Counted from the stretch's first letter, positions 13,679 to 48,621 are shown. The stretch is 64,000 nt of DNA from Thermoanaerobaculia bacterium (GCA_038248205.1 JBBRUC010000001.1:32480-96479), one strand, 5' to 3'. Translations and numbers: made by a program. The notes: a model not told the origin generated them from the sequence alone.

Positions 13679-14511
13679 ACCGCGAATCGATCCTCGCCGC
13701 CGCCCGCTCCGGCCAGCTCTATCCCGCGGTCATCCTTCACGGCTCGACCTCGGAGGGGCGGCGAGAGATGGTCTTCGAACTCGCCCGGGCTCTGCTGTGC
13801 GACGCCGAGCCCGCCGCCCGGCCCTGTGGCGTATGTCGTCATTGTCGGCGGATCGTGGCGACCGAAAGCGGCGGCGATGCGCCGTTTCATCCCGATTTCC
13901 AGCTTCTCGATCGCGATACCAAGACCTCGACCTCGGTCGATGCCACGCGGGAGCTTTTGAAGGCCGCGCAGTTTTCACCGTTCGAGGCCCGTGGCCAGGT
14001 CTTCGTAGTCGCCAGCGCCGAGAGCCTCACCGGCGAGGCGGCCAACGCCCTGCTCAAGGCGCTCGAAGAGCCGTACACCACCTCGCCGCGCCATTTTTTC
14101 TTGCTCGCCCCTTCCCGCCTCGATCTGCTCGCCACCTTGCGCAGCCGGTCGCTCTCGGTGTTCCTCGGCCCCGCCGCGCCGCCCGATCGCGAGTCCCTGG
14201 CCCGCGTGGCGACGACCTTCGCCGCCGCGGTTGCCGCCTGGGAAAGCAGCAGGGCGCCGATCCACCTGCTCGCCGCGGCGAGCATCCTCGGGAGCGTAGG
14301 TGATTTCGACGACGCTCGATCGAGTCAACCCTGGGCGCTGGCCGCGACCGCCATCCTGGCCGGCCTACCGGTCGAAGGGCCGCCGTGCTCTCCCCTGCTC
14401 GCGCTCGCCGAAGCGTTGCTCGAAGCACCGGCGTGGCGTTTGCGCGGCATCCCGGCCGACCGCATCCTCGAAGGGCTGGTCGCCCGGCATTTGGCGCTGG
14501 CCCTACGGTAG
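13675..14511 (+). CDS. holB: DNA polymerase III delta-prime subunit
   Basis: Zinc module CGVCRHCRR, a degenerate Walker region and SRC-like motif TLRSRS follow the conserved tmk-holB order. ATGA overlap with the tmk stop. Start at ATG 13675, internal to the 396-aa track ORF. Confidence 0.8.
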   Translation: MNRESILAAARSGQLYPAVILHGSTSEGRREMVFELARALLCDAEPAARPCGVCRHCRRIVATESGGDAPFHPDFQLLDRDTKTSTSVDATRELLKAAQFSPFEARGQVFVVASAESLTGEAANALLKALEEPYTTSPRHFFLLAPSRLDLLATLRSRSLSVFLGPAAPPDRESLARVATTFAAAVAAWESSRAPIHLLAAASILGSVGDFDDARSSQPWALAATAILAGLPVEGPPCSPLLALAEALLEAPAWRLRGIPADRILEGLVARHLALALR

Positions 14512-14624
14512 GTCTGGAGCCAGGAGGCCAGGGGTGCGTGATCTCCTGGTCCGCCCGTTCGCCGGACCGGAGCGCGGGACGAACCGCAGTTCGCGGGGGG
14601 CTGGTAGGATCTCGCCGGTCCAAC

Positions 14625-15869
14625 GTGAAGATCCTCCTCGTCGTTTCCCGCTCGCCGTTCCCGCCGCGCCGGGGGGATCAGATGCGCGCCGTCCAGGCTC
14701 TGGAAATTCTGGGGTCCGAGCACCAGATCACCCTCGTGACCCCGCGCGGCGGGCAGCCTCCAGCAGAGCTGGGCGGGCGGGTTCGATTCGAAACCTATGA
14801 GCCGCCGGGCCGATTTGCGCGGCTGGTCGGCGTGGCGGGTGCCGCGGTCCAAGGCCAGCCGCTTCAGGCGGGGCTGTTTCGGAGCAGCGACCTTGCGCGG
14901 AAGCTGCGGACGCTCGCTCCGCGACACGATCTCGTCGTGCTCCAACTGGAACGGCTGATCGGTCACCTTCCCGACCTGCTCGGCGTACCGCTGGTCGTCG
15001 ACCTGATCGACAGCCTCTCCCTGAACTTCGAGCGACGGGCCGATTTCGATTCTTGGATCTGGCGCCCCGCGCTCCGGTTCGAAGCGGCGCGGCTGCTTGG
15101 CGCCGAGCGCCGGTTGGCGAGCCGGGCGTTCAAGGTGCTCGTCGTCTCCGAGCGGGATCGTCACTACCTCGAGGGGCGGCTCGGTCCCGAGTTGGCGGCA
15201 AAGGTGGCGGTGGTGCCGCTCTCCATGTCGATCCCCGAGGATCTGCCGCCGACCCTGCGTTTGTGGAAGCGGCCGGGCGAAGCGTGGGCCGGCGCGGCGG
15301 CGGTCGATCCGATTGAGCCCGGTGAGCCCAAGGAGCGCCCCCTTCTCGCGATGACCGGCAATCTTGGGTACTTCCCAACCCTCGACGGCGCCCTCTGGTT
15401 TCTCGAGTCGGTCTGGCCGCTCGTCCGGGCGGCGCGGCCGGAGGTTCGGTTCGTCCTCGCGGGCGCCCGGCCGCCGCGGCGGCTCCGGACCGCTATCGCC
15501 CGGGGGGGCGCCGAGCTGATCGAATCCCCCCCCGATCTGCGCTCGATCCTCAAAGGCGCCACGCTCGCCCTGGCACCGATGCGGGCGGGTTCCGGCCTGC
15601 CGGTCAAGGTCCTCGAAGCCTGGCTTGAGGGGGTTCCGGTGGTCGCAACCCCGTGGGCTGCGGAGGGCGTTTCGGGCCATGCCGGGCTCGACCTGGCGGT
15701 CGTGGAACCCCAGCCGGCCGGCTGGTGCGGGGAGATCTTGCGCCTGTTGGGCGATCCCGGCGCGAGGGCACGGCTCGTCGCGCGGGCTCGCGAACGCCTT
15801 GCCGCGGACTACGGCGCGGAGATCGTGGCGGACCGTTGGCGCGCGGCGATCGAGGGAGCGAGCGATTGA
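14625..15869 (+). CDS. Family 4 (GT-B fold) glycosyltransferase
   Basis: VKILLVVSRSPFPPRRGDQ N-terminus and the C-terminal EAWLEGVPVVATPWAAEGV nucleotide-sugar-binding region of GT1/GT4. Start is GTG 14625, in frame within the track ORF. Confidence 0.7.
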   Translation: MKILLVVSRSPFPPRRGDQMRAVQALEILGSEHQITLVTPRGGQPPAELGGRVRFETYEPPGRFARLVGVAGAAVQGQPLQAGLFRSSDLARKLRTLAPRHDLVVLQLERLIGHLPDLLGVPLVVDLIDSLSLNFERRADFDSWIWRPALRFEAARLLGAERRLASRAFKVLVVSERDRHYLEGRLGPELAAKVAVVPLSMSIPEDLPPTLRLWKRPGEAWAGAAAVDPIEPGEPKERPLLAMTGNLGYFPTLDGALWFLESVWPLVRAARPEVRFVLAGARPPRRLRTAIARGGAELIESPPDLRSILKGATLALAPMRAGSGLPVKVLEAWLEGVPVVATPWAAEGVSGHAGLDLAVVEPQPAGWCGEILRLLGDPGARARLVARARERLAADYGAEIVADRWRAAIEGASD

Positions 15870-15915
15870 GGAAATGGCCGGAGCACCATTTTCCGTCTTC
15901 GCGTAGAGTCGGGCG

Positions 15916-16566
15916 ATGGAACGGCAACGTCGGCAGCACACGACGGCGGAAGAGGTCGCCAACAGCGTGACGCACGGAGTGGGCCTGATCTTGTCGCTGA
16001 TCGGCTTTCCGCTCCTGGTCTTCACCGCTTCGGGACGCCAAGATCCTTGGCAGCTTTTGGGTTACGCGGTCTTTGCCACCACCCTGGTCTTTCTCTATGG
16101 GATCTCGACGCTCTATCACTCCGCCAAGCCCGGCCGGACGAAGCAGATCTTAAGGGTGCTCGACCATTCCGCGATCTACCTTTTGATCGCCGGTACCTAC
16201 ACGCCGTTCACCCTGGGCGTGCTTCGCGGCGCCTGGGGCTGGACGCTCCTCGGTTTGATCTGGGGTCTTGCGGTCTTCGGAATTCTGTTCAAGAGCCTGA
16301 TCGGCATCCGTCTGCCGCGCGCCTCGATCGTCCTCTACATTCTGATGGGCTGGCTGGTGGTGATTGCGATCCGTCCCTTGGCCGTCCAGCACGACGGCGC
16401 GGCGTTGCGCTGGCTGCTCGCGGGGGGTCTCCTCTACACCGGGGGGGTCGTGTTTTACGCCTGGGAGCGACTGCGCTACCACCACATGCTCTGGCATCTG
16501 TTCGTTCTCGGCGGCAGCGTCTGTCACTTTCTCGCTGTGCTCTGGTACGCCGCTCCGCCGGCTTGA
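15916..16566 (+). CDS. Hemolysin III family (PAQR/YqfA) membrane protein
   Basis: Seven TM segments. Motifs EEVANSVTHGVG, HSAIYLLIAGTYTPF and MLWHLFVLGGSVCHF match HlyIII. Confidence 0.85.
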   Translation: MERQRRQHTTAEEVANSVTHGVGLILSLIGFPLLVFTASGRQDPWQLLGYAVFATTLVFLYGISTLYHSAKPGRTKQILRVLDHSAIYLLIAGTYTPFTLGVLRGAWGWTLLGLIWGLAVFGILFKSLIGIRLPRASIVLYILMGWLVVIAIRPLAVQHDGAALRWLLAGGLLYTGGVVFYAWERLRYHHMLWHLFVLGGSVCHFLAVLWYAAPPA

Positions 16567-16738: not shown

Positions 16739-17026
16739 GTGAATATTCGTCCCCTTCACGATCGGGTGGTCGTCAAGCGAATTGAGCAGGGTGAGCAGGT
16801 CCGCGGAGGCATCATCATCCCGGACACCGCCAAAGAAAAGCCGCAGGAGGCCGAGGTCGTGGCCGTGGGTCCGGGCAAACTGAACGACGAGGGCAAGCGG
16901 ATGCCGATCGACGTCAAGGCCGGCGACCGTGTGCTGATCGGCAAGTACTCGGGCAGCGAGATCAAGATCGATGGTGAAGAACTCGTCATCCTCCGCGAGG
17001 ACGAGATCTTGGCCGTGGTCGGTTAA
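16739..17026 (+). CDS. groES: Co-chaperonin GroES
   Basis: 95 aa reading [45 protein letters not shown], a canonical Cpn10 sequence. GTG start with AGGGAGG upstream. Confidence 0.95.
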
Positions 17027-17056
17027 CTCAACTCTACGACCTCAAGGAGGTTCTAA

Positions 17057-18712
<1,656 letters not shown>

Positions 18713-18815: not shown

Positions 18816-19442
18816 CTAGAAGTGGGCGCGCAGGCCGAGATAGATCTTGGTCTGCAGGCTGGCCTGCGCGTCCTGGACGAGGTCGAAGCGGCCGGTGCCG
18901 AACGCGGAGACGTGCTCCGAGAGGAAGAGGTCGACACCGAACTGGGCGTCGACACCCACCTTGGTCTGGTCGCCGGACTCGCCCGGGTTGTCCTTGAGCA
19001 GCGCGGAATCGATCTGATGGAGCGCCGCGCCCGCGCCGAAGAAGGTCTCGATGTTGCCGAACGGAACCACGCCGATCAGATTCGCGCCAATCAAGAGGTC
19101 GCTCGCTTTGCCGTCGCCGCGCGCCTTCGAGGTCTCCCAGTAGCCGATTTCGGGCTCGACGTAGCCGCGAATCCCGCGGTCGGGCGAACCGTAGTCCTGC
19201 TCGTTCTTATGACCCGCGCGGATGCGCAACGAGGCGGTAAGGTACGGCTCGGTGAAACTGCCGTTCGAGGGTTCGACCAAGCCGACGCCGACGGACAGAG
19301 CGAACCGCTTTTCTTCTTTGTAGTCCGCATAGGGATCCCGGTTCGGATCGCCATCGCGGCTTTGCGGATCTTGAGCCCGCGCCGCCGCTGCGGGCAGCAT
19401 CAGGGTCGCGCCCACGGCTACCACGGTGAGCCATCGTTTCAT
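18816..19442 (-). CDS. Small outer-membrane beta-barrel protein (OmpA/OmpW-like transmembrane barrel)
   Basis: Signal peptide MKRWLTVVAVGATLMLPAAAARAQ, alternating amphipathic beta-strands, and a C-terminal aromatic residue (...YLGLRAHF). AGGAGGG Shine-Dalgarno before ATG 19442. Confidence 0.6.
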   Translation of the reverse strand: MKRWLTVVAVGATLMLPAAAARAQDPQSRDGDPNRDPYADYKEEKRFALSVGVGLVEPSNGSFTEPYLTASLRIRAGHKNEQDYGSPDRGIRGYVEPEIGYWETSKARGDGKASDLLIGANLIGVVPFGNIETFFGAGAALHQIDSALLKDNPGESGDQTKVGVDAQFGVDLFLSEHVSAFGTGRFDLVQDAQASLQTKIYLGLRAHF

Positions 19443-19534: not shown

Positions 19535-20026
19535 CTAGCAAAAAGCATCCCCCGTCGCTTTGGGGCTTACTTCACCCCCCGTTCGGATCAGCGGCGCGAA
19601 ACGCTCGGCGAGCGTCGGCGACTCTCCAATCGGCGTTCCGCGATGCTCCACCCAGGCGTGGGCGGCGAGAGCCGCGCCCTCTTTGCTCACCCCAAAACGG
19701 ATCTCGGTCTCGATCCCCTCCTCGGCAAGGAACGATTGGAGGGCGAGAGCCCGCGGAAGGCAAAGCATGGGGTAGAGATGGTGCCGCGCGGCGACGTCTA
19801 CCGCCCGGACCCAAAGAGCGAGGATCTCCGTTTCGCCACCCGGCGGAAACGAGCCGGGAGGGCGGCGAGCCGCGAAGCGGCTGGAAAGTCGCGCCGCAAC
19901 CCGAGAATATCCGAACAGGCGTAGGCGGAGATCGACCCCGGCGAGGCGCAGTATCGCGCGCAGCAGCCGGCGACGCTCAGGACCCGGGAGGGCGAGCCAT
20001 CGACGGGCGTCACGCGGGCGCCACAT
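19535..20026 (-). CDS. Lasso peptide biosynthesis B2 protein (transglutaminase-like leader peptidase)
   Basis: CLPRALALQSFLAEEGIETEIRFGV...ALAAHAWVE is the conserved Cys/His core of the lasso B2 (McjB C-terminal-domain) family. The start overlaps the B1 stop. Confidence 0.85.
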   Translation of the reverse strand: MWRPRDARRWLALPGPERRRLLRAILRLAGVDLRLRLFGYSRVAARLSSRFAARRPPGSFPPGGETEILALWVRAVDVAARHHLYPMLCLPRALALQSFLAEEGIETEIRFGVSKEGAALAAHAWVEHRGTPIGESPTLAERFAPLIRTGGEVSPKATGDAFC

Positions 20027-20309
20027 CGATCAGCCCATGGTCGAGCAGGTCGCGCACGAGATCCGTGAGATCCGAGCGCAACACCTCGACTTCGACCTTG
20101 TAATCGCTTTGCAGCCGCTCCAGCGTCTCGCCGAACGTCGAACCTTCGAGCCAAAGGGTCCAAGCCCGGGTGGCGACTTCGTTGAGGCCGTAATAGATCC
20201 CCCCCTCGACGTCGAGGACGACCATCTCACCCCCCAGCTCTCGGGCCAGCACGCCTTCACGGGGGCGAACGACGCTGTGCGGAAGAAGACCCAAGGTTGC
20301 GGTGGTCAT
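20010..20309 (-). CDS. Lasso peptide biosynthesis B1 protein (PqqD-like RiPP recognition element)
   Basis: MTTATLGLLPHSVVRPREGVLARELGGEMVVLDVEGGIYYGLNEVATRAWTLWLEGSTFGETLERL has the PqqD/RRE fold pattern. Start at ATG 20309; the track ORF has a 45-aa upstream extension. Confidence 0.8.
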   Translation of the reverse strand: MTTATLGLLPHSVVRPREGVLARELGGEMVVLDVEGGIYYGLNEVATRAWTLWLEGSTFGETLERLQSDYKVEVEVLRSDLTDLVRDLLDHGLIDVAPA

Positions 20310-20325
20310 GCGGAGAGGAAAATTA

Positions 20326-21276
20326 TCACAGCCCCTCAAGGTGCCCGAGAACCGCGGCACGGACCCGCGGCAGGTGCTCCAGTCCATTCGGATAGCGAAG
20401 ATGAAATACCGGAATCCGCTCGGCGACCCAGGCCAGGCGCTCAAACCGCCGACCTATGCCGATCGCCGCCTCGCCGAGCGCCCCGAGAAAGGAATGGCGT
20501 ACCAGTTCGATCATCGCCTCGCGGGGGGAGAGGCGTTCCATCTCGATCGTTGAACCTTCGCGCACCGGCAGGAACAGCGCGTCGAGCGGGCGCGCCGAAT
20601 CTTGAAACGTGCCGAGCCCTGCCCCGCCGACCGGCACCCGGCGCTTGTCGAAATCGGGATGCACCGGTTCAAGCTCGGTGGGATTTTCAACCAGATCATC
20701 CATCGATCTGGGCCAGAGGCGGAGCTGCGGAAAGCTCGGCGTGGCCACGATGGCGCCGAGAGAATCGACTTCCACGGCGAGCACGTCGTCGGTCAGAAGT
20801 GAAAAGCCCTCCGGAAGAAAGCTCGCGGCGAGACTGCTCTTGCCGGCTCGGTTGAAACCGAGAAAGCCGACTCCACCCAGAGGCGTGTCGACAGCGGAAG
20901 CGTGTAGGCAGAGAGCCCCCGAGATCTCCAGCCAGAGCGCGAGTACGATCCCCAAAAGGTAGGTCTCGGCCGAGGCGCAATCACCCTTTTGCCCGATCGA
21001 ATAGGCAATCCGTCCTCTCTCGACCCGGAACTCAATGCCCTCGACGAAGCGCAGTAGATGGTGGTCGCCCTCTCGAAAGGCGGTGAGCCAGCGCTCTGCT
21101 CCCTCCTCTAAGGATCCACTCTCAAAGAACGCTTCGGCTCGGCGGCCGGATCCTCGTTCGACCGCGGGGACGCGCTCGACCACGAGGTCGATTGAACCTT
21201 CGGATTGGGGCGCGACGAGTGTTTTGAGTGAAGGCTCGACGGAGACTCGGCGGCCGAAAAGGAGATAGGTGGGCAT
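20326..21276 (-). CDS. HPr kinase/phosphorylase-related kinase (lasso peptide precursor Ser-kinase type)
   Basis: Walker A FLGFNRAGKSSLAASF lies inside an HprK C-terminal-like domain. An HprK homolog inside a lasso cluster is the hallmark of paeninodin-type phosphorylated lasso peptides. Confidence 0.75.
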   Translation of the reverse strand: MPTYLLFGRRVSVEPSLKTLVAPQSEGSIDLVVERVPAVERGSGRRAEAFFESGSLEEGAERWLTAFREGDHHLLRFVEGIEFRVERGRIAYSIGQKGDCASAETYLLGIVLALWLEISGALCLHASAVDTPLGGVGFLGFNRAGKSSLAASFLPEGFSLLTDDVLAVEVDSLGAIVATPSFPQLRLWPRSMDDLVENPTELEPVHPDFDKRRVPVGGAGLGTFQDSARPLDALFLPVREGSTIEMERLSPREAMIELVRHSFLGALGEAAIGIGRRFERLAWVAERIPVFHLRYPNGLEHLPRVRAAVLGHLEGL

Positions 21277-21309
21277 TCGATCGGCAGATTCTGGAGCTGG
21301 CTCGGCGAA

Positions 21310-22995
21310 TCAATGGAAATGCAACCTCAGCCAAGCCTCTAGGGTCAGGCTATACCAGAACAGCGCTTCGTTCGTGGCGCCGGCCTGGTACCGCTCGTAC
21401 GCCCGGCGCAGCGGAGCTTCTTCGACGAAACCCATCCGGGCGGCGATCATGTCGGTACAAAGGTCCAACGCCTGCTTCTGCTCTCGCTCCCGCAAACCGC
21501 GATCGAAGATCGGGGTCGGATAGGTCTTTCCCAGGCGCTCGACCTCCGGGGCCGGAAGCAGACCCGCGAGCGCATTGCGAAGAACGAGCTTCGGCGACCC
21601 GGCACGATAGGTCTGATCCGAAGGAAGCGACGCCGCAAGCTCGAACAGCCGATGATCGAGCCAGGGGTGGCGCAGCTCGATGCCGTGCTCCGCCGCCTGC
21701 TCGGTCGCCTGGGCGGCAACGGCGCGCAGCAAGGGGTCGCGCAGAATCTCCAGCCGGCGGCGACGCCCGGGCAAGAGGGTTCGAGGGATTTCGGGGAACG
21801 CGGGCGGGGCGACCCCTCGCAGGCGAGGTCCAAGCCACTCAGGAGGCGAATCGGAAGATCGCCGAGGCATCAGGAACCGCGCGATCGGGCCGAGAGTTTG
21901 GAAACGCAGGAGCCAATACCAGTCCACCCCGAACTGGCGCCGATGGCTCAGCAGGCCCTGGGTCAGGCGCAGCCAATGGCCCTGCCAGAACAGGTCCGAA
22001 TAGGAGACGACATTGCCTCCGACCAGATGGTCGCCGCTCAAGCCCGACAGGAGAACACGAATTCCTTCCGATCGAACGGTTCGGAAGGTCTCGTCCCAGA
22101 GCGAGGAGTAGGAGTTGGCGAGCGGACTCCCAGGCGGAAGCCGCGGCGGACGACGGAGCGTCCACTCCTGATCGGCCGCGATCAGCACTTGCCGCAGGCC
22201 GAGCGCGCGGCAAACGTCGGCGGCCAGAGCACTCTCGTCGGCTTCCGGTAGCTCGGGGCTCGCCCACGAAAACGCCAGCAGGCTCGAAGCCGGAACCGTT
22301 TGCCGCGCCGCCGCGGCCACCGCCGTGGAGTCGAGGCCGCCGCTTACGGTAACTCCGCACGGCTCCTCCGGCAGGTATTCGGCGACCACCGAGAGCAGAC
22401 GGTCACGAAAAGCCTCGGCGTATTCCCCATCGGACCCAAGTCGCAAGGTTGAGATTGCCTCGGGTCGCCAGTAGACCCGCGTCTCAAGACGGGAAGAGTC
22501 GGCGATCAGGACGGCTCCGGCGTCGAGGGCGTGAATGTCACGATAGAAGGTCTCGCCGGGATCCGGCACGGCGCCGCAGATTTGGCGGGCCACTGAGGTC
22601 TCGTTGAGCGCCGGAGTCTGGTCGGCGAACAGGTCCTCAATTCGATCGGAAAGGGCGAGGAGATCGCCGCGCAGCGTGAAGTAAAGAGAATTCGCCCCCA
22701 GTCGATCACGTAAAACGTACAAACGGCGACGAGGACCATGCCACAAAATCCAGGCACAGGGCCCGGCAATGAGACGCGCCGCGTCCAGAGGTTCGCGCGA
22801 GCAGGCGCGAACGAGCAGCATAATATCGCTCTCTAGAGGATCGGCCCCGAAAGCATCAATCAGCTCTTTTCTATTCGCAATGAAGCCGGAAAACCAGAGG
22901 CATCGAATCGCGTCGTACCCGACTCCATCGGGCGCCGCGCGGCTTCTGTGCCATCGAACCAAGGAACTTTGAAAAGCCGCCGAGGCAACGGACAT
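21310..22995 (-). CDS. Lasso peptide isopeptide-bond-forming cyclase (asparagine synthetase B-like; C protein)
   Basis: PP-loop SGGLDS and an AsnB C-terminal-domain-like pattern. The track ORF begins with TTG at 23091 and would overlap the candidate precursor. ATG 22995 (MSVASAAF...) gives a 22-nt gap after the precursor stop and is preferred. Confidence 0.8.
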   Translation of the reverse strand: MSVASAAFQSSLVRWHRSRAAPDGVGYDAIRCLWFSGFIANRKELIDAFGADPLESDIMLLVRACSREPLDAARLIAGPCAWILWHGPRRRLYVLRDRLGANSLYFTLRGDLLALSDRIEDLFADQTPALNETSVARQICGAVPDPGETFYRDIHALDAGAVLIADSSRLETRVYWRPEAISTLRLGSDGEYAEAFRDRLLSVVAEYLPEEPCGVTVSGGLDSTAVAAAARQTVPASSLLAFSWASPELPEADESALAADVCRALGLRQVLIAADQEWTLRRPPRLPPGSPLANSYSSLWDETFRTVRSEGIRVLLSGLSGDHLVGGNVVSYSDLFWQGHWLRLTQGLLSHRRQFGVDWYWLLRFQTLGPIARFLMPRRSSDSPPEWLGPRLRGVAPPAFPEIPRTLLPGRRRRLEILRDPLLRAVAAQATEQAAEHGIELRHPWLDHRLFELAASLPSDQTYRAGSPKLVLRNALAGLLPAPEVERLGKTYPTPIFDRGLREREQKQALDLCTDMIAARMGFVEEAPLRRAYERYQAGATNEALFWYSLTLEAWLRLHFH

Positions 22996-23017
22996 CCGAG
23001 GGGAGACGGGACGAAAA

Positions 23018-23248
23018 TCAGCTCCGGGTGCCTTTTCCGGGGTCGGGTTTGCTATTCGCTCGAGAACCGAAGAAACCGTCTGGATTGCCAAAGTTTCCCG
23101 CCGCCTGCGTCAATCCGGAAAGGTCTCCGAAAACGATCAATCGCGGACTGGAATAGGCGCTCCGGGCGGTCCACGGACGGTCGGCAAATGTCTCAGAGTC
23201 CACTGACTCTCGCATATTTGCATATCGATCGGACCGAGGCTCGACCAT
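23018..23248 (-). CDS. Candidate lasso peptide precursor (A peptide)
   Basis: 76 aa: MVEPRSDRYANMRESVDSETFADRPWTARSAYSSPRLIVFGDLSGLTQ / AAGNFGNPDGFFGSRANSKPDPGKGTRS. Thr sits at leader position -2 (LTQ). The core starts with Ala and has Asp at position 9 (a 9-residue macrolactam, as in paeninodin AGPGTSTPD) and ends in Ser. GGGGG Shine-Dalgarno before ATG 23248. Located immediately upstream of the cyclase. Codons are AT-richer than the genome average. Confidence 0.55.
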   Translation of the reverse strand: MVEPRSDRYANMRESVDSETFADRPWTARSAYSSPRLIVFGDLSGLTQAAGNFGNPDGFFGSRANSKPDPGKGTRS

Positions 23249-23400: not shown

Positions 23401-23430
23401 AAAAAAAATGAGCCCGGGAAACCCGGGCTC
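23401..23430 (-). terminator. Rho-independent terminator downstream of giant gene 1
   Basis: GAGCCCGGG-aaa-CCCGGGCTC hairpin, followed on the minus strand by TTTTTTTT. A second perfect 10-bp hairpin, GGTCGGCGCC-aa-GGCGCCGACC, lies at 23452..23473. Confidence 0.65.
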
Positions 23431-23487
23431 GCGAAACTTCGATAAAGAGAGGGTCGGCGCCAAGGCGCCGACCTTCTCAAAGTCAAC

Positions 23488-26400
23488 CTAGTTGCGATGC
23501 GGTGCGCAGAGCAACCCGTTGTTGTAGTCGTCGAGCATCTCGTGCCACGGCGAGGCCTGATTCCAAGCCGAGCTGCTGCCGCGTACGTTGCTGCCGACCG
23601 GGTGGGTCTTCAGCCAGTTGTCGGCAGAGGTGATGATCGAGTCGATGCAGCTCGAGACGTTGCCGACCAGAACGTTCAACTTGGCCGCGATCAGCTGTTT
23701 GGCCAAATCGATCGTCTTGTCGCCCTTGCTCGGGGTGCCGAGAAGCGAGATCGCCTGGGAGACCGAGTAGGTCTTGTTGCCGATCTTGATGCTCTCGACC
23801 GGCCAGGCGCTCGCGTGGTTCTTCCAGTAGCCGATCGTGCCGGTACCCGGCGCCGGAGTGGTCGGCGGGCACTGGACGATGTCGACGTTGATGTCGCCTT
23901 GACCGGTGGTGGGCAGGGAGCCTCCCGAAGAGGGCTGCGTGACCACCGTCCACTTGTACCAACCGGAGGCCCCGTAGTTAAGGTTCTTGCCGTTGGCACC
24001 GACGCCGAGCTGGAACGCCGGCCCGGTGCGGGTGACGTTGATCACCGCGCCGCTGTTGCTGCTGAGTCCGGTCAGGGTTCCGTTGTACCCGGTGTAGTAG
24101 ATCCAGGTTCCCGTGTTGACCGGGCCGCCGTTCTCCGAGTAAGCCGAAGCCATGAGTTCCTTCTTCGGGCTACCGGCGGGGGTGACGGTCGTCCGGCCGG
24201 TGAAAGTGATGCTCACCGTCCAGGCGTTCAACGAGTTGGACAAGCTGCGCAACGTACCGTTCATGTTCGCCGTGCCGTTCGAGTTCTGAATGAACGAGCC
24301 CGGGGCCGGAGTGAACTGGTAATCGGTACCGATGCCCGGGAGCCAGAAGGCATGATTGGCTCCAGCGCCTTGGACCGACGGATCGTTGATCGCTTCGTCC
24401 ACACACTGCGGGTTATTGCTCGGGGAGTTGTAGCCGAAGTCTACGTCGAGCTTCGACTGACCGGCCGCGAGAGCGAACGCCGTGGTGTTCGCCGTGCCGA
24501 TGCCGTCGAGATCGTAGGTCTGCACATAGCCGGCCGGAACGGTCATCACGTCGACCGTCACCGTGTAGTTGCCGGAGAGCAGGTTCGAGAACAGGTAGTT
24601 CCCGTCACCGCTCGTGGTTACGACAGCGACCACGTTGCCGGAGCTGTTGCGCAGCACCACGTCGACGCCGTTGATTCCGAGCTCACCGGCGTCCTGAATG
24701 CCGTCGGCGTCGGTATCGGTCCAGACGCGGTCGCCGACCGAGGCCGTACCGCGGTAGCCGAAGTCAACGTTGAAGTTCGACTGATTGGCCGCGAGAGCGA
24801 CCGTCGCCTTGTTCGGGGTGCCCAGGCCATCGAGATCGTAGGTCTGGGTCAAACCTGCAGGCAGGGTAGAGGTGACGACCTGCACTGAGTAGGTGCCGGC
24901 CAGGAGGTTCTGGAACTGGTAGAGGCCGTCGCCCGCCGTGACCTTGGTGGCGATGACGTTGCCACCGGCGTCGAGCAGGTTGACGGTGACTCCGTTGATG
25001 CCGACTTCGAGCAGGTCCTGCGCGCCGTCGCCGTCGGAATCGATCCAGACCCGGTCACCGATCGAGCCGGTGCCGCGATAGCCGAAGTCGACGTCCGTAC
25101 GATTCTGGCCTCCGGTGATCGAAGCGGCGGCGATGTTCGCCGTCCCGGTTCCGTCGAGATCGTAGGTCTGGGTGAGGCCGGCGGGCAGCGTCGAAGACTC
25201 GACGCGGACCGAATAGCTTCCGGCCGCCAGGTTGGTGAAGGTGTAGTTACCGTCGCCACTGGTAATCGCCGTCTGGAGGACGACGCTACCTGAGCTAAGG
25301 AGCGAGACCGTGACGCCGTTCAGGCCGGACTCGCCGGGATCCTGGACGCCGTTGCCGTTGGTGTCGATCCACAGCCGGTCGCCGATCGAGCCGGTGCCGC
25401 GATAGCCGAAGTCGACGTCGTCGCGTTCCGCCTGAGCGAGCGTAAGCGTGGTGCTCGCGATGTGCGGGGTGGCAATTCCATCGAGATCGAACGTCGGGGC
25501 AAGACCCGCGGGCAGCGTCGAGGTCGCGACGCGGACCGAGTAGCTACCGAGCGGCAGATTGGCGAAGTTGTAGTTGCCGTTGCCGCTCGTCGCGGTGGTG
25601 GCAATGACGTTGCCGCCGTTGTCGAGCAGATCCAGGGTGACGCCGTTGATGCCGGACTCACTCGCGTCCTGGAGGCCATCGCCGTTTTCGTCGAGCCAGA
25701 TACGGTCGCCGATCGCGCCGACGCCCTTGTATCCGAAGTCGGCGTCGGTCCGGTTCTGGCCGGGGCCGAGCATCAGGTCGGTGAAGTTGACCGACGAGAT
25801 CCCGTCGAGGTCGTAACTCGCGGCGAGGCCGGCGGGCAGCGTTGCCGCTTCGATCCGCACCGAGTAGTGGCTCGACGGCAGGTTACCGAACGTGTAGTCG
25901 CCGTCGCCGCTGGTCACCCGGGTCGCCAAGACGTTGCCGCCCTGGTCGAGCAAGGAAACCGTGACGCCGTTGATCCCGTTTTCACCGGCATCTTGGATGC
26001 CGTCGGCGTCGAAGTCGAGCCAGACACGGTCGCCGATCGAGCCGGTACCGCGATAGCCGAAGTCGACGTCGGTCCGGTTCTGGCCGCCGATCAGGCCGAC
26101 CACGGCAAAGTTCGCCGTGCCGATGCCATCGAGGTCATAGGAGGGAACCAGACCGGTCGGGAGGGTGGCGGCTTCGACCCGCACGGCGTAGGAACCGCCC
26201 GGGAGGTTGCCAAAGGTGTAGTTGCCGTCGCCCGCGGTGAGCTGCGAGGCGATGACGTTGCCGCCGCTGTCGAGCAGTGTGACCGTGACGCCGTTCAAGC
26301 CGGCCTCACCGCCGTCCTGGATGCCGTCGTTGTTGAAATCGAGCCAGAGACGATCACCGATCGAGCCGGTGCCGCGATAGCCGAAGTCGACGTCGGCCCG

Positions 26401-29358
26401 GTTCTGGCCGCCCGCGAGGCTCGCCGCGGCGAGGTTCGCCGAGCCGATGCCGTCGAGGTCGTAGGTGGGCGCAAGGCCCGCCGGGAGAGTCGCCGCCACC
26501 ACCCGTACGGAGTAGTTGCCGGCGGGGAGATTGGCGAAGGTGTAGCCGCCGTCTCCGGCGGTTACCTGGGTCGCGAGAACGTTGCCGCCGTTGTCGAGAA
26601 GCTCCACAGTGACGCCGTTGATTCCGGCCTCCCCGGCGTCCTGGACGGTATCGGCGTCGAAATCGAGCCAGACGCGATCACCGATCGAGCCGGTGCCGCG
26701 ATAGCCAAAATCCACGTCGATCCGGTTCTGACCACCGGCCAGAGCGAACAAGGCGATGTGGGCCGTGGCGATGCCGTCGAGGTCGTAGGTCGGAGAGACT
26801 CCCGCCGGCAGGGTGGCCGAGACGACCCGGACCGAGTAGTTGCCCACCGGGAGGTTGGAGAAGGTGTAGTTGCCGTCGCCCGAAGTCACCTGCGATGCGA
26901 CGACGGTACCGCCGGAATTCAAAAGCTCGACGGTGATGCCGTTGAGCCCTGCTTCACCGCCGTCTTGGACGCCGTCGGCGTTGAAATCGAGCCAAACGCG
27001 ATCACCGACCGAAGCCGTGCCGCGATAGCCGAAGTCTACGTCCATCCGGCTCTGTCCGCCGATCAAGGAGACCGAAGCGACGTTGGCCGAGGCCAGACCG
27101 TCGAGGTCGTAGGTCTGGACCGAGCCGGCCGGAAGGGTCGCTGCCGCCACACGCACCGAATAACTTCCGGCGTTCAAGTTCGAGAAGGTGTAGTGGCCGT
27201 CGCCCGAGGTCACCTGGCTCGCGATGACGTTGCCGCCGTTGTCGAGCAACTCGACGGTGACGCCGTTGATGCCGGTCTCGCCGACACCCTGCAAGCCGTT
27301 GCCGTCGGCGTCGAGCCAAACGCGATCGCCGAGCGAACCGGTGCCGCGGTAGCCGAAGTCGACGTTGGTTTTGTTCTCGGCGGCCGCAAGAGAGAAGCTC
27401 GCAATGTTGGCCGAGCTTGTACCGTCGAGATCGAAGGTCGGGGCAACTCCCACCGGAAGGGTAGAGGTTACGACCCGCACCATGTAGCTGCCGGCGGCTA
27501 GATTGTCGAACAGATAGTCGCCGTCGCCGGTCGTTACCTGCGTGGCCAAGACGTTGCCGCCGTTGTCGAGGAGTTCGAGGGTGACGCCATTGATGCCGTT
27601 TTCGCCGCCATCCTGAATGCCGTCGCCGTTGGTGTCGAGCCAGACCCGGTCGCCAACCGAGGCGTCGTTGGCAGCCCCTTCGGAATAACCGAAGTCATAG
27701 GTGAGGACGTTGCCGTTGGTGAGCGTACGGGTGAGCGATTCGCCGCCCGTCGTCGAGGACTTACCCTCCAACGGCTGGCCGGGACCGAAGTTGCTCGCCG
27801 CGACCCGTACTTCATACGTTCCCGGCGAGTCCATGCCGAAGCAGTAGAGGCCGTTGGTGTCGGTACCCGTGTTGTTGGCTACGCACGCCGACCAGTTCGG
27901 GCTCGAAGTCTCGCCCGTGGTGGCCGTAGCGATCACCGATCCGTCGCTCGGACGGACCAGCTCCATCAGAACGCCCGGAATGCCCGCTTCACTCGGATCC
28001 AAAACACCCGGATTCGCTGTGTCCGCCCAGACGAAATCACCCAACAGATAGATCGATTCGTCCGAGCAGGCCGCCACGCGCGGCACATCGTCAGGATCCT
28101 CACCCGGGATCGGGGCGCGGGCCGGTCGCGTCGCACAGGTGTCCGCGAACCAGAAGTTCAGATTCGCGAGGTCCAAACCGATAATCGTGACTTTCCACAT
28201 ACCCGAGGGAAGAGTCGCGCCGCCGTAGACCCAATCCGCATCGCCGGCGAACGGCGAATTGATGCTCGCGATCAGGAACTGCTCCCATTCGAAGCTGCCC
28301 GAGGGGTTATCGTTGAAATAGATGTTGCCGTCCGGATCCGTCACTTCGTAGCGGACGCAGCCGATCCGGTTCGGATCGCCGGGCTCGCCGCGGCGGAAGG
28401 CATCCAAGTTGTTGTCATCCGGCGGTACGCCAGGGCCTTGGACCCCTTCCGGGTTGGCACCGGCGGTCGAGAAGGGGAAGCCGCTGTAGTCGGCGGCGGT
28501 ATCGAAGTCGTCCTCGTCCTCGCACGGATCGAGCGCCACGCCCGAGGGAGAGCCCACGGTCGAATTGGTACCGAAATCGAAGTCGCCGTCGAACATACGG
28601 AGTTCGGTTTCGCCGCCGGGCAGGGTGAAGAAGAACTCGAACGTGCCGTCGTAGGTCGTCGGCGCGGTGAGGAATCCGCCCGGGGGCGGAAACGTGCCCG
28701 GGTAAAGAATCGGGCCGTCGTTGAACAGCTGACGGAACGCGCCAACCAGGCCGAACTGCGGAGTACGGAAGGTCATCGGGTTCGAGGCCGCGACCTTGAT
28801 GTTGCTCTCAAGAACCTCGCCCGGGGCGCACGAGCCGTCGAGGCCGATCACCAAGTTATAGAAGTAGTTGCCGCTGGGCGCCTGGGCAATGGCCCCGTTT
28901 GTGACCGTCACAGCCCACCAATCGTTGTCGGGCATGGCGGCTGAGCTGGAAGTCCAGAGCGGCCCACTCGTCGGATTGACTCCGTTGCCGGTCCAGGTGC
29001 CGATCAGGTTGGCGGGGGCGGTGCTGCCGGTGCGCAGCGGATCCGCATAGAGGGAGTAGATGAGCTGGCGGGAGCCGGCGTCCCAATGCGGACGCGCGGC
29101 GCCATCGGCCATGCCGGTGTCGCCATCGAAGATGTTGACGTCGAACGTCGGGACCGACGCAGGCGCCGCCATGGCAATCTGGACGTTCTGCTCGAACGTC
29201 GCGATGCCGGCGCAACCGAAGCCCATGAAGCGACCGTCGGTGGCGCTTTCCGAGGGAAACGCCGCGAACGGCCCCGGTCCGATCTGAGCCCTCGCAGCGC
29301 CAAGGGCCGTCAGGGCCAGTAGCGCCAAAGTAGCGCACCTACTGTAAAACCTTCTCAT
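23488..29358 (-). CDS. Giant secreted repeat protein 1 (about 1956 aa): conserved N-terminal domain, about 11-12 SdrD-B/Cna-B-like Ca-binding repeats, one X repeat, conserved C-terminal domain
   Basis: Signal peptide MRRFYSRCATLALLALTALGAARAQ, with GGAG before ATG 29358. The roughly 600-aa N-terminal domain is shared with the two downstream paralogs. Tandem roughly 103-aa repeats read GDRVWLDxNGNGxQDxGExGINGVTVxLL...SGDGNYTFxNLPAGxYSVRV...LPAG..PTYDLDG...DVDFGYR, matching SdrD B-domain/Cna-B-like repeats with DxDxDG Ca sites. One roughly 200-aa Cys-bounded X repeat follows. The C-terminal domain GYWKNHASAWPV...LLCAPHRN is nearly identical in gene 2. Confidence 0.8.
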   Translation of the reverse strand: MRRFYSRCATLALLALTALGAARAQIGPGPFAAFPSESATDGRFMGFGCAGIATFEQNVQIAMAAPASVPTFDVNIFDGDTGMADGAARPHWDAGSRQLIYSLYADPLRTGSTAPANLIGTWTGNGVNPTSGPLWTSSSAAMPDNDWWAVTVTNGAIAQAPSGNYFYNLVIGLDGSCAPGEVLESNIKVAASNPMTFRTPQFGLVGAFRQLFNDGPILYPGTFPPPGGFLTAPTTYDGTFEFFFTLPGGETELRMFDGDFDFGTNSTVGSPSGVALDPCEDEDDFDTAADYSGFPFSTAGANPEGVQGPGVPPDDNNLDAFRRGEPGDPNRIGCVRYEVTDPDGNIYFNDNPSGSFEWEQFLIASINSPFAGDADWVYGGATLPSGMWKVTIIGLDLANLNFWFADTCATRPARAPIPGEDPDDVPRVAACSDESIYLLGDFVWADTANPGVLDPSEAGIPGVLMELVRPSDGSVIATATTGETSSPNWSACVANNTGTDTNGLYCFGMDSPGTYEVRVAASNFGPGQPLEGKSSTTGGESLTRTLTNGNVLTYDFGYSEGAANDASVGDRVWLDTNGDGIQDGGENGINGVTLELLDNGGNVLATQVTTGDGDYLFDNLAAGSYMVRVVTSTLPVGVAPTFDLDGTSSANIASFSLAAAENKTNVDFGYRGTGSLGDRVWLDADGNGLQGVGETGINGVTVELLDNGGNVIASQVTSGDGHYTFSNLNAGSYSVRVAAATLPAGSVQTYDLDGLASANVASVSLIGGQSRMDVDFGYRGTASVGDRVWLDFNADGVQDGGEAGLNGITVELLNSGGTVVASQVTSGDGNYTFSNLPVGNYSVRVVSATLPAGVSPTYDLDGIATAHIALFALAGGQNRIDVDFGYRGTGSIGDRVWLDFDADTVQDAGEAGINGVTVELLDNGGNVLATQVTAGDGGYTFANLPAGNYSVRVVAATLPAGLAPTYDLDGIGSANLAAASLAGGQNRADVDFGYRGTGSIGDRLWLDFNNDGIQDGGEAGLNGVTVTLLDSGGNVIASQLTAGDGNYTFGNLPGGSYAVRVEAATLPTGLVPSYDLDGIGTANFAVVGLIGGQNRTDVDFGYRGTGSIGDRVWLDFDADGIQDAGENGINGVTVSLLDQGGNVLATRVTSGDGDYTFGNLPSSHYSVRIEAATLPAGLAASYDLDGISSVNFTDLMLGPGQNRTDADFGYKGVGAIGDRIWLDENGDGLQDASESGINGVTLDLLDNGGNVIATTATSGNGNYNFANLPLGSYSVRVATSTLPAGLAPTFDLDGIATPHIASTTLTLAQAERDDVDFGYRGTGSIGDRLWIDTNGNGVQDPGESGLNGVTVSLLSSGSVVLQTAITSGDGNYTFTNLAAGSYSVRVESSTLPAGLTQTYDLDGTGTANIAAASITGGQNRTDVDFGYRGTGSIGDRVWIDSDGDGAQDLLEVGINGVTVNLLDAGGNVIATKVTAGDGLYQFQNLLAGTYSVQVVTSTLPAGLTQTYDLDGLGTPNKATVALAANQSNFNVDFGYRGTASVGDRVWTDTDADGIQDAGELGINGVDVVLRNSSGNVVAVVTTSGDGNYLFSNLLSGNYTVTVDVMTVPAGYVQTYDLDGIGTANTTAFALAAGQSKLDVDFGYNSPSNNPQCVDEAINDPSVQGAGANHAFWLPGIGTDYQFTPAPGSFIQNSNGTANMNGTLRSLSNSLNAWTVSITFTGRTTVTPAGSPKKELMASAYSENGGPVNTGTWIYYTGYNGTLTGLSSNSGAVINVTRTGPAFQLGVGANGKNLNYGASGWYKWTVVTQPSSGGSLPTTGQGDINVDIVQCPPTTPAPGTGTIGYWKNHASAWPVESIKIGNKTYSVSQAISLLGTPSKGDKTIDLAKQLIAAKLNVLVGNVSSCIDSIITSADNWLKTHPVGSNVRGSSSAWNQASPWHEMLDDYNNGLLCAPHRN
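24430..27700 (-). repeat. Tandem array of about 11 near-identical ~309-bp coding repeats (SdrD-B-like modules) inside giant gene 1; coordinates approximate
   Basis: Recurrent DNA strings such as GTCGCCGATCGAGCCGGTGCCGCGATAGCCGAAGTCGACGTCGG and GACGCCGTTGATGCCG recur with roughly 309-bp periodicity across this span. These are coding repeats, not CRISPR. Confidence 0.7.
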
Positions 29359-29701
29359 AACTCCATTCCCTTTCCCCGGCCAAAAGCATCGCCACGAAGG
29401 CGGGCGCGTCCGGTGCCCCAATGTTGCCGGGTGGGGGCCACCGAACCTCCAATCAAGTAGTCCGCTGCCAAAAATTGCGCAGCGCGAGAGCCAAAGATCG
29501 TCAGTCAACCCTTCGTAAGAGCAAAAAGGCAGTTCCATCTACGGCAAGTAGGAAACGACTCTTCCAAGACTGAGCGCCACATTGGGCTCGATGTTTTGGA
29601 CAGGCGGCACCCTTTGCCCTTCCGTTCAGTCGTTTAGTTGTTTAATGGGAACTTGATGGTTCCCGGGGCGGCTAAGACAATCCGCACTGTAACGAAAGGA
29701 C

Positions 29702-36182: not shown

Positions 36183-36318
36183 CCGATCACCCTTTCTCCG
36201 ATGGTCCAAAAGACTTCGCGCGCTTTCCGAACTGCCGCCCGACAAGACTCGCAAACCTAAGTAAAACCAAGAGTTTGGCCTGGAACTACCCGCTTGTAGG
36301 GTGATCTTTTTCGGCGAT

Positions 36319-38325: not shown

Positions 38326-38601
38326 GGTTACCCCCCTTAGCGGCCGACACACTCCGCCGCAGGGGCTTACTTTGCGCCAACTGAAAGCTCGTATAGGCCG
38401 GACAAAATAGCGCAGCGCGCGATTGTCCCCCCATCGGCGAATCGGGGTTCTGAGTTAGGATCGCCCTCTCTTGCGATTGCGGCCAACGAACAACCTCTGA
38501 TAAGGCCAGTTCCCCCGTGAGCTACGAGCGATTTATCCGCCGAGCCCTTCGATCGAGCTGGCCTTCCGCGCGATGAGGTTCCCGGCCGGAGGTGTTGTAG
38601 C

Positions 38602-48499: not shown

Positions 48500-48621
48500 C
48501 GAATCAGTAGCCGACTCGGGCGTCCGTCTCGGTGTTACGATTCGCCCGCCTCCGAGGAGTCTTGGTGCCCGAATCCGCCTCTCCCAGCCGCCCCCCTCTC
48601 CTGCTCGAAGCGGAACGCCCG

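What the first reader, a model, noticed from the sequence alone, without database searches (positions are those of the whole stretch)
19535..23248. Kinase-associated (paeninodin-type) lasso peptide cluster: A - C - HprK-like kinase - B1 - B2
Five co-directional, tightly spaced or overlapping genes on the minus strand encode the complete core lasso machinery. They are an Asn-synthetase-like cyclase (SGGLDS), a split B protein (PqqD-like B1 and transglutaminase-like B2 with the CLPRALAL...AHAW core), and an HprK-related kinase with a P-loop. The kinase is known to O-phosphorylate the C-terminal Ser of the precursor in paeninodin-family clusters. The order A-C-K-B1-B2 and the high-GC Gram-negative host differ from the Firmicutes prototype (A-K-B1-B2-C-D). 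No cluster-associated ABC exporter is present; the next gene downstream is a small outer-membrane barrel.
Basis: partly seen in the sequence, partly recalled or inferred. Interest (0 to 1): 0.7.

Follow-up and report, generated by a model that had tools for sequence, protein, structure and literature searches.

The report
Kinase-tailored lasso peptide gene cluster
This is a complete gene cluster for a knotted "lasso" peptide plus a tailoring kinase, one of thousands of similar uncharacterised clusters, and its relatives suggest the kinase phosphorylates an internal serine rather than the last residue as in the textbook example.

Summary
Window 19535-23248 (minus strand) encodes a lasso precursor (A), an Asn-synthetase-like cyclase (C), an HprK-like P-loop kinase (K), a PqqD-type leader-binding protein (B1) and a transglutaminase-like protease (B2). 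The genes are tightly packed. Two strong terminators lie upstream and none was found inside.

"Paeninodin-type" is only partly right. The kinase sits in a separate, very large clade, 18-30% identical to one kinase of each characterised cluster type. No ABC exporter is present.

Among 65 linked core peptides, a C-terminal Ser occurs in only 11%. A Gly-Ser/Thr just after the ring occurs in 88%, and in three kinase-bearing relatives (plus one short contig) it is the only Ser/Thr. I therefore favour Ser14 over Ser28 as the phosphorylation site. This is inference, not proof.

The downstream outer-membrane barrel is a conserved neighbour near groESL that also occurs without lasso genes. This is a new variant of a known kind, of moderate interest.

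The parts
23018..23248 (-). Precursor peptide A, 76 aa from ATG 23248 (an alternative start is Met12 at 23215). The leader is 48 aa and carries Tyr(-17), Pro(-14), Leu(-12) and Thr(-2). The predicted 28-aa core is AAGNFGNPD-GFFGS-RANSKPDPGKGTRS: ring Ala1-Asp9, conserved Gly13-Ser14, C-terminal Ser28.
   Evidence: ORF, DNA. NCBIfam lasso_cyano scores 25.7 bits, below its cut-off of 33. Homologous precursors lie next to C and K in related loci. It is the only hit to the precursor HMM in the window, E 5.5e-25.
21310..22995 (-). Lasso cyclase C, an Asn-synthetase homologue of 561 aa from ATG 22995. The longest ORF starts at TTG 23091 and would overlap A. It is predicted to form the Ala1-Asp9 isopeptide bond.
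   Evidence: PF00733 at 6e-38 and GATase_7 at 6e-7. NF033535 lasso cyclase scores 189.9 bits, below its cut-off of 525. The SGGLDS motif is in the translation. It is 71% identical to the C of L001.
20326..21276 (-). HprK-related P-loop kinase K (316 aa). Catalytic residues are His125, Gly140, Gly145-Lys146-Ser147 and Asp163-Asp164.
20010..20309 (-). B1, a PqqD-like RiPP recognition element of 99 aa from ATG 20309. The longest ORF starts at 20444, inside K.
   Evidence: PF05402 at 2.5e-14; NF033536 lasso PqqD chaperone scores 44.9 bits, below its cut-off of 80.
19535..20026 (-). B2, the transglutaminase-like leader peptidase (163 aa), with the CLPRALAL...AHAWVE core.
   Evidence: PF13471 at 4e-20. 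NF033537 lasso B2 scores 67.4 bits, above its cut-off of 33. It is closer to B2s of kinase-bearing clusters (E 1e-6 to 6e-9) than to actinobacterial B2s (E 0.03 to 0.1).
23410..23473 (-). Two strong intrinsic-terminator-like hairpins downstream of the giant SdrD_B gene. They mark the 5' boundary of the lasso transcription unit.
   Evidence: 9-bp stems with 8 GC pairs, each followed by a T run; sequence.
18816..19442 (-). Small outer-membrane beta-barrel protein (208 aa, with a signal peptide and a C-terminal Phe), 92 nt downstream of B2. It may be co-transcribed. It is a conserved neighbour, and membership of the cluster is doubtful.
   Evidence: PF13505 hit is weak. It is 93% identical in L001, against 58-71% for the lasso proteins. 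It is adjacent to lasso genes in 14 of 26 metagenome loci seeded with this protein, but occurs next to groEL without lasso genes in L091, L104 and L107.

Best explanation
This is a functional biosynthetic operon for a class II lasso peptide that carries a phosphate.

Proposed pathway (each step marked as shown or inferred):
1. The 76-aa precursor is bound through its YxxPxL...T(-2) leader by the PqqD-like B1. This is inferred from the motif and the family.
2. The HprK-like kinase K uses ATP to phosphorylate a Ser of the still linear precursor, probably assisted by B1. That the protein is a kinase is supported by fold and motif. The timing and the B1 assistance are inferred from PadeK, ThcoK and BsfK.
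3. B2 cuts after Gln48.
4. C activates the Asp9 side chain and joins it to the new Ala1 amine. This gives a 9-residue ring threaded by a 19-residue tail.

The most likely phosphorylation site is Ser14, in the conserved Gly-Ser just after the ring, not the C-terminal Ser28 as in paeninodin. I put Ser14 at about 0.5, Ser28 at about 0.3, and another site or none at about 0.2.

No dedicated exporter is encoded. Export and the biological target remain unknown.
For: Core machinery: B1, B2 and C families pass Pfam cut-offs, and B2 passes the NCBIfam lasso cut-off. The leader has the canonical Tyr(-17), Pro(-14), Leu(-12) and Thr(-2), and the core has Asp at position 9 (motif as described in PMC10368454).

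Kinase:
- His125, Gly145-Lys146 and Asp163-Asp164 are invariant in 42 homologues.
- The spacing is the same as in the BsfK motif H148..G163..G168-K169-S170..D186-D187.
- The profile's four best PDB hits are HPr kinases.
- It is homologous to kinases of an annotated paeninodin-family cluster (E 3e-20) and of a proteobacterial-type cluster (E 2e-27), with all motif residues aligned.

Operon: terminators lie upstream and none was found between A and B2.

Site:
- 57 of 65 unique cores linked to this kinase clade have G-[S/T] at core positions 12-16. Tail shuffling gives 18.9 +/- 3.5, and 0 of 2000 shuffles reach 57.
- Only 7 of 65 end in Ser, no more than the Ser content of the tails.
- The precursors in the four closest loci (L001, L085, L002, L004) end in R, G, R and H. 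The Ser of G-S-R is the only hydroxyl residue aligned in all five, window included.
- In three kinase-bearing loci this position holds the only Ser/Thr of the core: L073 T16, L116 S14, L122 T15.
Against: No experiment bears on this cluster.
- The window precursor does end in Ser. Every characterised lasso kinase except BsfK acts on a C-terminal Ser.
- SyanA-type precursors also carry G-T at positions 15-16, yet SyanK is reported to modify the C-terminal Ser. A conserved G-S/T may therefore be structural rather than a phospho-site.
- The five closest precursors also each have a Ser/Thr within their last four residues.
- The 65 cores are phylogenetically related, so the shuffle statistic overstates independence.
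- Cleavage sites and ring acceptors are predicted by rule.
- The kinase itself fails the Pfam and NCBIfam cut-offs.
Confidence: 0.75

Rival explanations
1. Paeninodin-type chemistry. K phosphorylates, or polyphosphorylates, the hydroxyl of the C-terminal Ser28 of the linear precursor. The conserved Gly-Ser after the ring is only a structural feature of the fold.
For: The window precursor ends in ...GTRS. PadeK, ThcoK, SyanK and PsmK all modify a C-terminal Ser and tolerate varied upstream sequence. The reference precursors from Priestia, Sulfitobacter and SyanA all end in Ser, and SyanA also has G-T at positions 15-16.
Against: A C-terminal Ser is present in only 7 of 65 cores of this kinase clade. 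It is absent from the precursors in the four closest loci (L001, L085, L002, L004), whose kinases are about 58-62% identical and whose precursors end in R, G, R and H. The kinase is only 18-30% identical to the two reference types and falls outside them in a tree. BsfK shows that the site is not fixed in this superfamily.
Confidence: 0.25
2. K does not tailor the precursor. Instead it modifies the mature peptide as self-protection, standing in for the missing exporter or immunity gene, or it has an unrelated or regulatory substrate.
For: No exporter or immunity gene lies in or near the cluster. Lys acetylation serves as self-resistance for some lasso peptides (PMC13352647).
Against: K sits between C and B1 in one tight operon, and it co-occurs with lasso genes and precursors in most of the 80 loci seeded with the kinase. 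Characterised homologues act on linear precursors and fail on threaded peptides.
Confidence: 0.07
3. The cluster is an inactive relic, inherited with a conserved chromosomal block (SdrD_B genes, outer-membrane barrel, groESL), and makes no product.
For: The cluster sits in a block that is syntenic across Thermoanaerobaculia and Holophagales. Some relatives retain only a B2 gene beside groESL (L097, L120, L135).
Against: All five ORFs are intact, match their homologues in length and keep their catalytic motifs. The precursor leader motif is conserved, whereas non-coding sequence would have decayed.
Confidence: 0.05

Closest known systems
Paeninodin cluster of Paenibacillus dendritiformis and relatives (PadeK, ThcoK, PsmK). 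Represented here by the Priestia aryabhattai pB2.3 locus L164, which NCBI annotates as 'paeninodin family lasso peptide'.
   Same: It has a split B1/B2, an Asn-synthetase-like C, and an HprK-like kinase placed directly before B1-B2. The His/Gly-Lys-Ser/Asp-Asp residues are all aligned. The ring is 9 residues closed on Asp9. The window precursor happens to end in Ser.
   Different: The Priestia representative kinase is only 24-26% identical and lies outside the window's clade. The gene order is A-C rather than C-A, and there is no ABC exporter D. The precursor does not resemble paeninodin-family precursors or match their models. The C-terminal Ser is not conserved among orthologues. The host is Acidobacteriota, not Bacillota.
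Proteobacterial kinase-type lasso clusters (SyanK of Sphingobium yanoikuyae, order A-B1-B2-C-K-D). Represented here by Sulfitobacter indolifex plasmid locus L165.
   Same: The host is Gram-negative. The leader has YxxPxL...G....LT, and a G-S/T lies a few residues after the ring. This representative is the nearer of the two compared (28-30% identity, E 2e-27).
   Different: The gene order differs and an ABC exporter is present. The precursors end in a conserved ...T(F/L)S, and SyanK polyphosphorylates that terminal Ser.
bsf cluster of Bradymonas sediminis (BsfK)
   Same: It sets the precedent that an HprK-like lasso kinase can act on a non-terminal Ser (Ser3) of the linear precursor, and that B1 accelerates it. 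The catalytic motif has the same spacing.
   Different: BsfA has Ile at position -2 and its site lies in the ring. Here Thr(-2) is canonical and the candidate site lies after the ring.
HPr kinase/phosphorylase (HprK/P) C-terminal domain, in the PEP-carboxykinase-like fold
   Different: The N-terminal domain is different. The gene context is RiPP biosynthesis rather than carbon catabolite control. PF07475 does not hit this protein.

Membership tests
Lasso peptide biosynthetic gene cluster | A precursor with a leader carrying YxxPxL and Thr(-2), and a core with Asp or Glu at position 7-9 | tested here: met
   Tyr32, Pro35, Leu37 and Thr47 are present, and the core has Ala1...Asp9. The same layout is seen in about 65 homologous precursors. 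NCBIfam lasso_cyano is below its cut-off, 25.7 against 33 bits.
Lasso peptide biosynthetic gene cluster | A PqqD-like RRE (B1) and a transglutaminase-like Cys protease (B2) | tested here: met
   PF05402 scores 53.8 bits (cut-off 23.4). PF13471 scores 72.3 bits (cut-off 26). NF033537 lasso B2 scores 67.4 bits (cut-off 33).
Lasso peptide biosynthetic gene cluster | An Asn-synthetase-like lasso cyclase (C) | tested here: met
   PF00733 scores 131.8 bits (cut-off 21), and the SGGLDS motif is present. The best NCBIfam model is lasso cyclase NF033535 at 189.9 bits, below that model's cut-off of 525.
Lasso peptide biosynthetic gene cluster | A threaded lariat product | not testable with these tools
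   This needs MS, NMR, or protease and heat stability assays of the expressed peptide.
HprK-related lasso-precursor kinases (PadeK, ThcoK, SyanK, BsfK) | The conserved His / P-loop Gly-Lys-Ser / Asp-Asp catalytic motif | tested here: met
   H125, G140, G145-K146-S147 and D163-D164 are present. They are invariant in alignment A1 and align with the Priestia and Sulfitobacter kinases. The spacing equals that of the BsfK motif.
HprK-related lasso-precursor kinases (PadeK, ThcoK, SyanK, BsfK) | The HprK C-terminal (PEPCK-like) fold | tested here: met
HprK-related lasso-precursor kinases (PadeK, ThcoK, SyanK, BsfK) | A hit to the curated HprK models (PF07475; TIGR04352 and TIGR04355) | tested here: not met
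   There is no Pfam hit. TIGR04352 scores 23 bits against a cut-off of 200. This test is weak: 16 of 42 homologues hit PF07475, and the two reference lasso kinases score only 32.5 and 33.7 bits against a cut-off of 33.3.
HprK-related lasso-precursor kinases (PadeK, ThcoK, SyanK, BsfK) | ATP-dependent phosphorylation of the linear precursor | not testable with these tools
   This needs an in vitro assay or co-expression followed by MS.
Paeninodin family in the strict sense | Cluster order C-A-K-B1-B2-D with an ABC exporter | tested here: not met
   The window has A-C-K-B1-B2 and no D. The nearest ABC-like ORF is about 25 kb away. The reference order is given in PMC5067487 and seen in L164.
Paeninodin family in the strict sense | A conserved C-terminal Ser on the precursor, the known phospho-site | tested here: inconclusive
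   The window precursor ends in Ser28. However, only 7 of 65 clade cores do, and the precursors in the four closest loci end in R, G, R and H.
Paeninodin family in the strict sense | Kinase and precursor sequences that group with the family | tested here: not met
   The kinase clade is 18-26% identical to the Priestia paeninodin-type kinase (window 24-26%) and lies outside it in an NJ tree. The precursor hits no paeninodin-family model and lacks the ...LD(V/I)xxTM|AGPG pattern.

The most novel reading that the evidence does not exclude
This cluster represents a third, very large and uncharacterised clade of lasso-peptide kinases. Its conserved target would be a Ser/Thr five to six residues after the ring-forming Asp (Ser14 here). 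The phosphate installed there before ring closure could act as part of the steric lock that keeps the tail threaded. Many clade members, such as TGLTNPGGDAKGGSVLSGGV, have no bulky tail residue that could otherwise do this job.
Probability: 0.4. Interest if true: 0.55.

Novelty: new variant of a known kind. Interest (0 to 1): 0.4.

Why it matters
Phosphorylated lasso peptides are known from only a handful of characterised systems: paeninodin and its relatives, SyanK, pseudomycoidin and BsfK.

The kinase profile built here finds 4,716 cluster representatives at E<=1e-30. They come from Acidobacteriota, Gemmatimonadota, Chloroflexota, Rhodothermales, Cyanobacteria, Actinomycetota and even methanogen MAGs. 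No characterised member of this clade turned up in the literature I could search. If its conserved post-ring Ser/Thr is the phospho-site, that would add a new regiochemistry to lasso tailoring. It might also give the phosphate a role in holding the fold. It would also provide a kinase useful for peptide engineering.

For this window alone the result is more modest. It is a well-formed but ordinary secondary-metabolite cluster of a known kind.

Tried and rejected
- **Single-sequence searches with the kinase.** phmmer against the PDB gave only a spurious ABC hit, and Pfam gave nothing. A profile and a structure model were needed.
- **Outer-membrane barrel as exporter.** I considered it because it lies between B1 and B2 in L081 and follows the cluster in 13 genome loci. 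A metagenome scan seeded with this protein showed it next to groEL without any lasso genes (L091, L104, L107). It evolves far more slowly than the lasso genes (93% against 58-71% identity). I therefore demoted it to a conserved neighbour.
- **Giant SdrD_B proteins as cluster members.** I found no functional argument for this, and strong terminators separate them from A.
- **Phosphorylation followed by elimination to dehydroalanine.** No lyase-like gene is present.
- **Second precursor or paralogous lasso genes in the window.** None found.
- **Structured RNA between 16000 and 24500.** None found.
- **Source organism and published sequences.** Exact-sequence look-ups of the kinase gave no contig record or name. 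The Zhu 2016 JBC paper and the RODEO paper were not held. PadeK, ThcoK, SyanK and BsfK sequences could therefore not be compared directly. Kinases from an annotated paeninodin-family plasmid cluster and from a proteobacterial-type plasmid cluster were used as stand-ins.


Full report
**1. What is in the sequence**

On the minus strand of window 19535-23248 there are five co-directional ORFs. The window has about 65% G+C.

- A, 23018-23248, 76 aa.
- C, 21310-22995 from an in-frame ATG, 561 aa. The longest ORF starts at TTG 23091 and would overlap A.
- K, 20326-21276, 316 aa.
- B1, 20010-20309 from an ATG, 99 aa.
- B2, 19535-20026, 163 aa.

The gaps are 22, 33 and 16 nt, followed by a 17-nt overlap. 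Two strong terminator-like hairpins at 23410-23473 separate the cluster from the upstream giant gene.

**2. The core lasso machinery**

Pfam gives Asn_synthase for C (131.8 bits) with a GATase_7 N-domain, PqqD for B1 (53.8 bits) and Transglut_core3 for B2 (72.3 bits). All are above their cut-offs. NCBIfam's lasso B2 model passes its cut-off (67.4 against 33 bits). The best NCBIfam models for C and B1 are lasso-specific but below cut-off.

The precursor places Tyr, Pro, Leu and Thr at -17, -14, -12 and -2. This is the canonical recognition motif described in PMC10368454. It predicts cleavage after Gln48. The resulting core is AAGNFGNPDGFFGSRANSKPDPGKGTRS, with a 9-residue Ala1-Asp9 ring.

Cleavage site and ring are predicted by rule, not shown. 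It is the only precursor-like ORF in the window, and there are no paralogues of the other genes.

**3. The kinase**

A single-sequence search of the PDB found nothing meaningful. The alignment-based half of the test passes clearly:

- A database search found 262 homologues. In an alignment of 42 of them, His125, Gly145-Lys146 and Asp163-Asp164 are invariant. This is the His-Lys-Asp-Asp motif reported for lasso kinases. Its spacing is the same as H148/G163/G168-K169-S170/D186-D187 of BsfK.
- The profile's four best PDB hits are HPr kinases, with E from 4.5e-5 to 5e-4, aligned over His...GKS...DD.
- 16 of the 42 homologues hit PF07475 individually.
- An AlphaFold model built from the alignment is confident, with pLDDT 93.9 and pTM 0.91.

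Two bona fide reference lasso kinases reach only 32.5 and 33.7 bits on PF07475, against a cut-off of 33.3. The missing Pfam hit is therefore not informative.

**4. Relation to characterised systems**

The held literature describes these types:
- Firmicute clusters ordered C-A-K-B1-B2-D, such as paeninodin.
- Proteobacterial clusters ordered A-B1-B2-C-K-D, such as SyanK.
- Pseudomycoidin.
- The Bradymonas bsf cluster, whose kinase phosphorylates ring residue Ser3 with help from B1.

I therefore recovered stand-ins by tblastn against plasmids:
- Priestia aryabhattai pB2.3 carries C, then a 'paeninodin family lasso peptide', then K, B1, B2 and an ABC exporter.
- A Sulfitobacter plasmid carries an ABC exporter, A, B1, B2, C and K.

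The window kinase is 26% identical to the Priestia kinase (E 3e-20) and 30% identical to the Sulfitobacter kinase (E 2e-27). All motif residues align.

Within the window's own clade, identities are 32% or higher, with a mean of 45%. The two references are 18-30% identical to the clade and 23% identical to each other. Both fall outside the clade in a neighbour-joining tree.

B2 is roughly equidistant from the B2s of all kinase-bearing systems, and closer to them than to actinobacterial B2s.

The clade is very large. The profile finds 31,341 cluster representatives at E<=1e-3, 17,626 at E<=1e-10 and 4,716 at E<=1e-30. A scan of reference genomes returned 80 loci. They come from Thermoanaerobaculia, Holophagales, Gemmatimonadota, Chloroflexota, Rhodothermales, Cyanobacteria, Actinomycetota and two methanogen MAGs. 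Most have C, B1 or B2 next to the kinase.

**5. Which residue is phosphorylated?**

The window precursor does end in Ser, and the reference precursors all do: PadeA, ThcoA, SyanA, Priestia and Sulfitobacter. The clade tells a different story.

- I built an HMM from nine homologous precursors. With it I found precursors in about 55 kinase-seeded loci and 21 further metagenome loci.
- Among 65 unique cores, only 7 end in Ser (10.8%). This is no more than the Ser content of the tails, 13.6%.
- 57 of 65 have Gly-Ser/Thr at core positions 12-16. Shuffling the tails gives 18.9 +/- 3.5, with 0 of 2000 shuffles reaching 57.
- The precursors in the four closest loci (L001, L085, L002, L004; kinases about 58-62% identical) end in R, G, R and H. 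The Ser of a shared G-S-R is the only hydroxyl residue aligned in all five.
- In L073, L116 and L122, all of which encode the kinase, this position holds the only Ser/Thr of the core.

By homology the site in the window is Ser14.

There are four caveats:
- SyanA-type precursors also have G-T at positions 15-16, although SyanK is reported to modify the terminal Ser.
- The five closest precursors also each have a Ser/Thr within their last four residues.
- The cores are related by descent, so they are not independent observations.
- Nothing here measures chemistry.

I therefore give Ser14 about 0.5, Ser28 about 0.3, and another site or none about 0.2.

**6. Surroundings**

Upstream lie two giant secreted SdrD_B-repeat proteins, at 23488-29538 and 29946-36254, and a smaller one at 36592-38352.

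Downstream, 92 nt after B2, lies a 208-aa protein with a signal peptide, a C-terminal Phe and weak OMP_b-brl matches. After it, groEL and groES converge from the plus strand.

The block of SdrD_B genes, lasso genes and barrel recurs in many Acidobacteriota loci, even where the outer flanks differ. In L081 the barrel gene lies between B1 and an inverted B2.

Seeding a metagenome scan with the barrel protein gave 26 loci with at least 3 kb of upstream sequence. Fourteen carry lasso genes and twelve do not, including barrel-plus-groEL loci such as L091, L104 and L107. The barrel is 93% identical between the window and L001. The lasso proteins are only 58-71% identical.

I conclude that the barrel is a slowly evolving neighbour near groESL rather than a dedicated lasso component. 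A role in export cannot be excluded. No ABC exporter lies near the cluster. The only ABC-like ORF is at 48511-50388.

**7. Verdict**

It is imprecise in three details: the label 'paeninodin-type', the quoted prototype gene order, and the assumed C-terminal phospho-site.

The system is a new variant of a known kind. It is a member of a large, apparently uncharacterised third clade of lasso kinases, lacks an exporter, and has a precursor family whose conserved hydroxyl residue lies just after the ring.

Interest is moderate at 0.4. The kind is known and the clade is common. Even so, it offers a clear, testable prediction about a new phosphorylation site.

Noticed in passing
window 18816-19442 (-): A small outer-membrane beta-barrel protein lies directly after B2. 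It is far more conserved than the lasso genes: 93% identity with L001, against 58-71%. It follows the lasso genes in many Acidobacteriota loci and sits between B1 and B2 in L081, yet it also occurs next to groEL without any lasso genes. It has no relative in the PDB by sequence.
   Followed up: yes
window 23488-29538, 29946-36254 and 36592-38352 (-): Two giant proteins (2016 and 2102 aa) and one 586-aa protein made of SdrD_B / CarboxypepD_reg repeats, the first with a signal peptide. A homologous giant gene sits immediately upstream of the lasso precursor in about 12 of 13 related Acidobacteriota loci that have enough upstream sequence. The reason for this persistent adjacency is unknown.
   Followed up: partly
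window 16739-18712 (+); loci L058, L113, L114: groES-groEL converge on the barrel gene. In some relatives the B2 gene lies on the far side of groESL, so the lasso genes straddle the chaperonin operon. In L097, L120 and L135 only a B2 gene remains there, which looks like a remnant of a lost cluster.
   Followed up: partly
L025 (Methanothrix MAG) and L030 (Methanolinea MAG, 658-kb contig): Homologues of the kinase occur in methanogen MAGs. L030 also has C, B1, B2 and a precursor (core GGTGVYQDNGGAGSYSPVRLD). This would be an archaeal kinase-type lasso cluster.
   Followed up: no
L010 1167-2369, L012 794-2230, L046 1847-3181: In Rhodothermales, Actinomycetota and Gemmatimonadota loci, the PqqD domain lies at the C-terminus of a stop-to-stop ORF of 400-480 aa. 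The N-terminal 300 or more residues have no Pfam match, and no separate B2 was detected. This may be a divergent fused B protein or an unknown fusion partner.
   Followed up: partly
L081 5249-8955: A Thermoanaerobaculaceae relative carries two tandem Asn-synthetase-like cyclase genes (597 and 556 aa) ahead of the kinase.
   Followed up: no
homologues P0058, P0064, P0072, P0112; L081 18411-18987: Some kinase homologues carry the precomputed Pfam label PF27840 (ScmC, SynChlorMet cassette). This links the kinase family to another cassette that contains a PqqD-family protein. The model is not in the local Pfam copy, so this could not be scored for the window protein.
   Followed up: no
window 14385-16566 (+) and 48511-50388 (+): Beyond groES (lower coordinates) lie a group-1 glycosyltransferase and a haemolysin-III family membrane protein. 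The only ABC-ATPase-like ORF in the window is about 25 kb from the cluster.
   Followed up: partly
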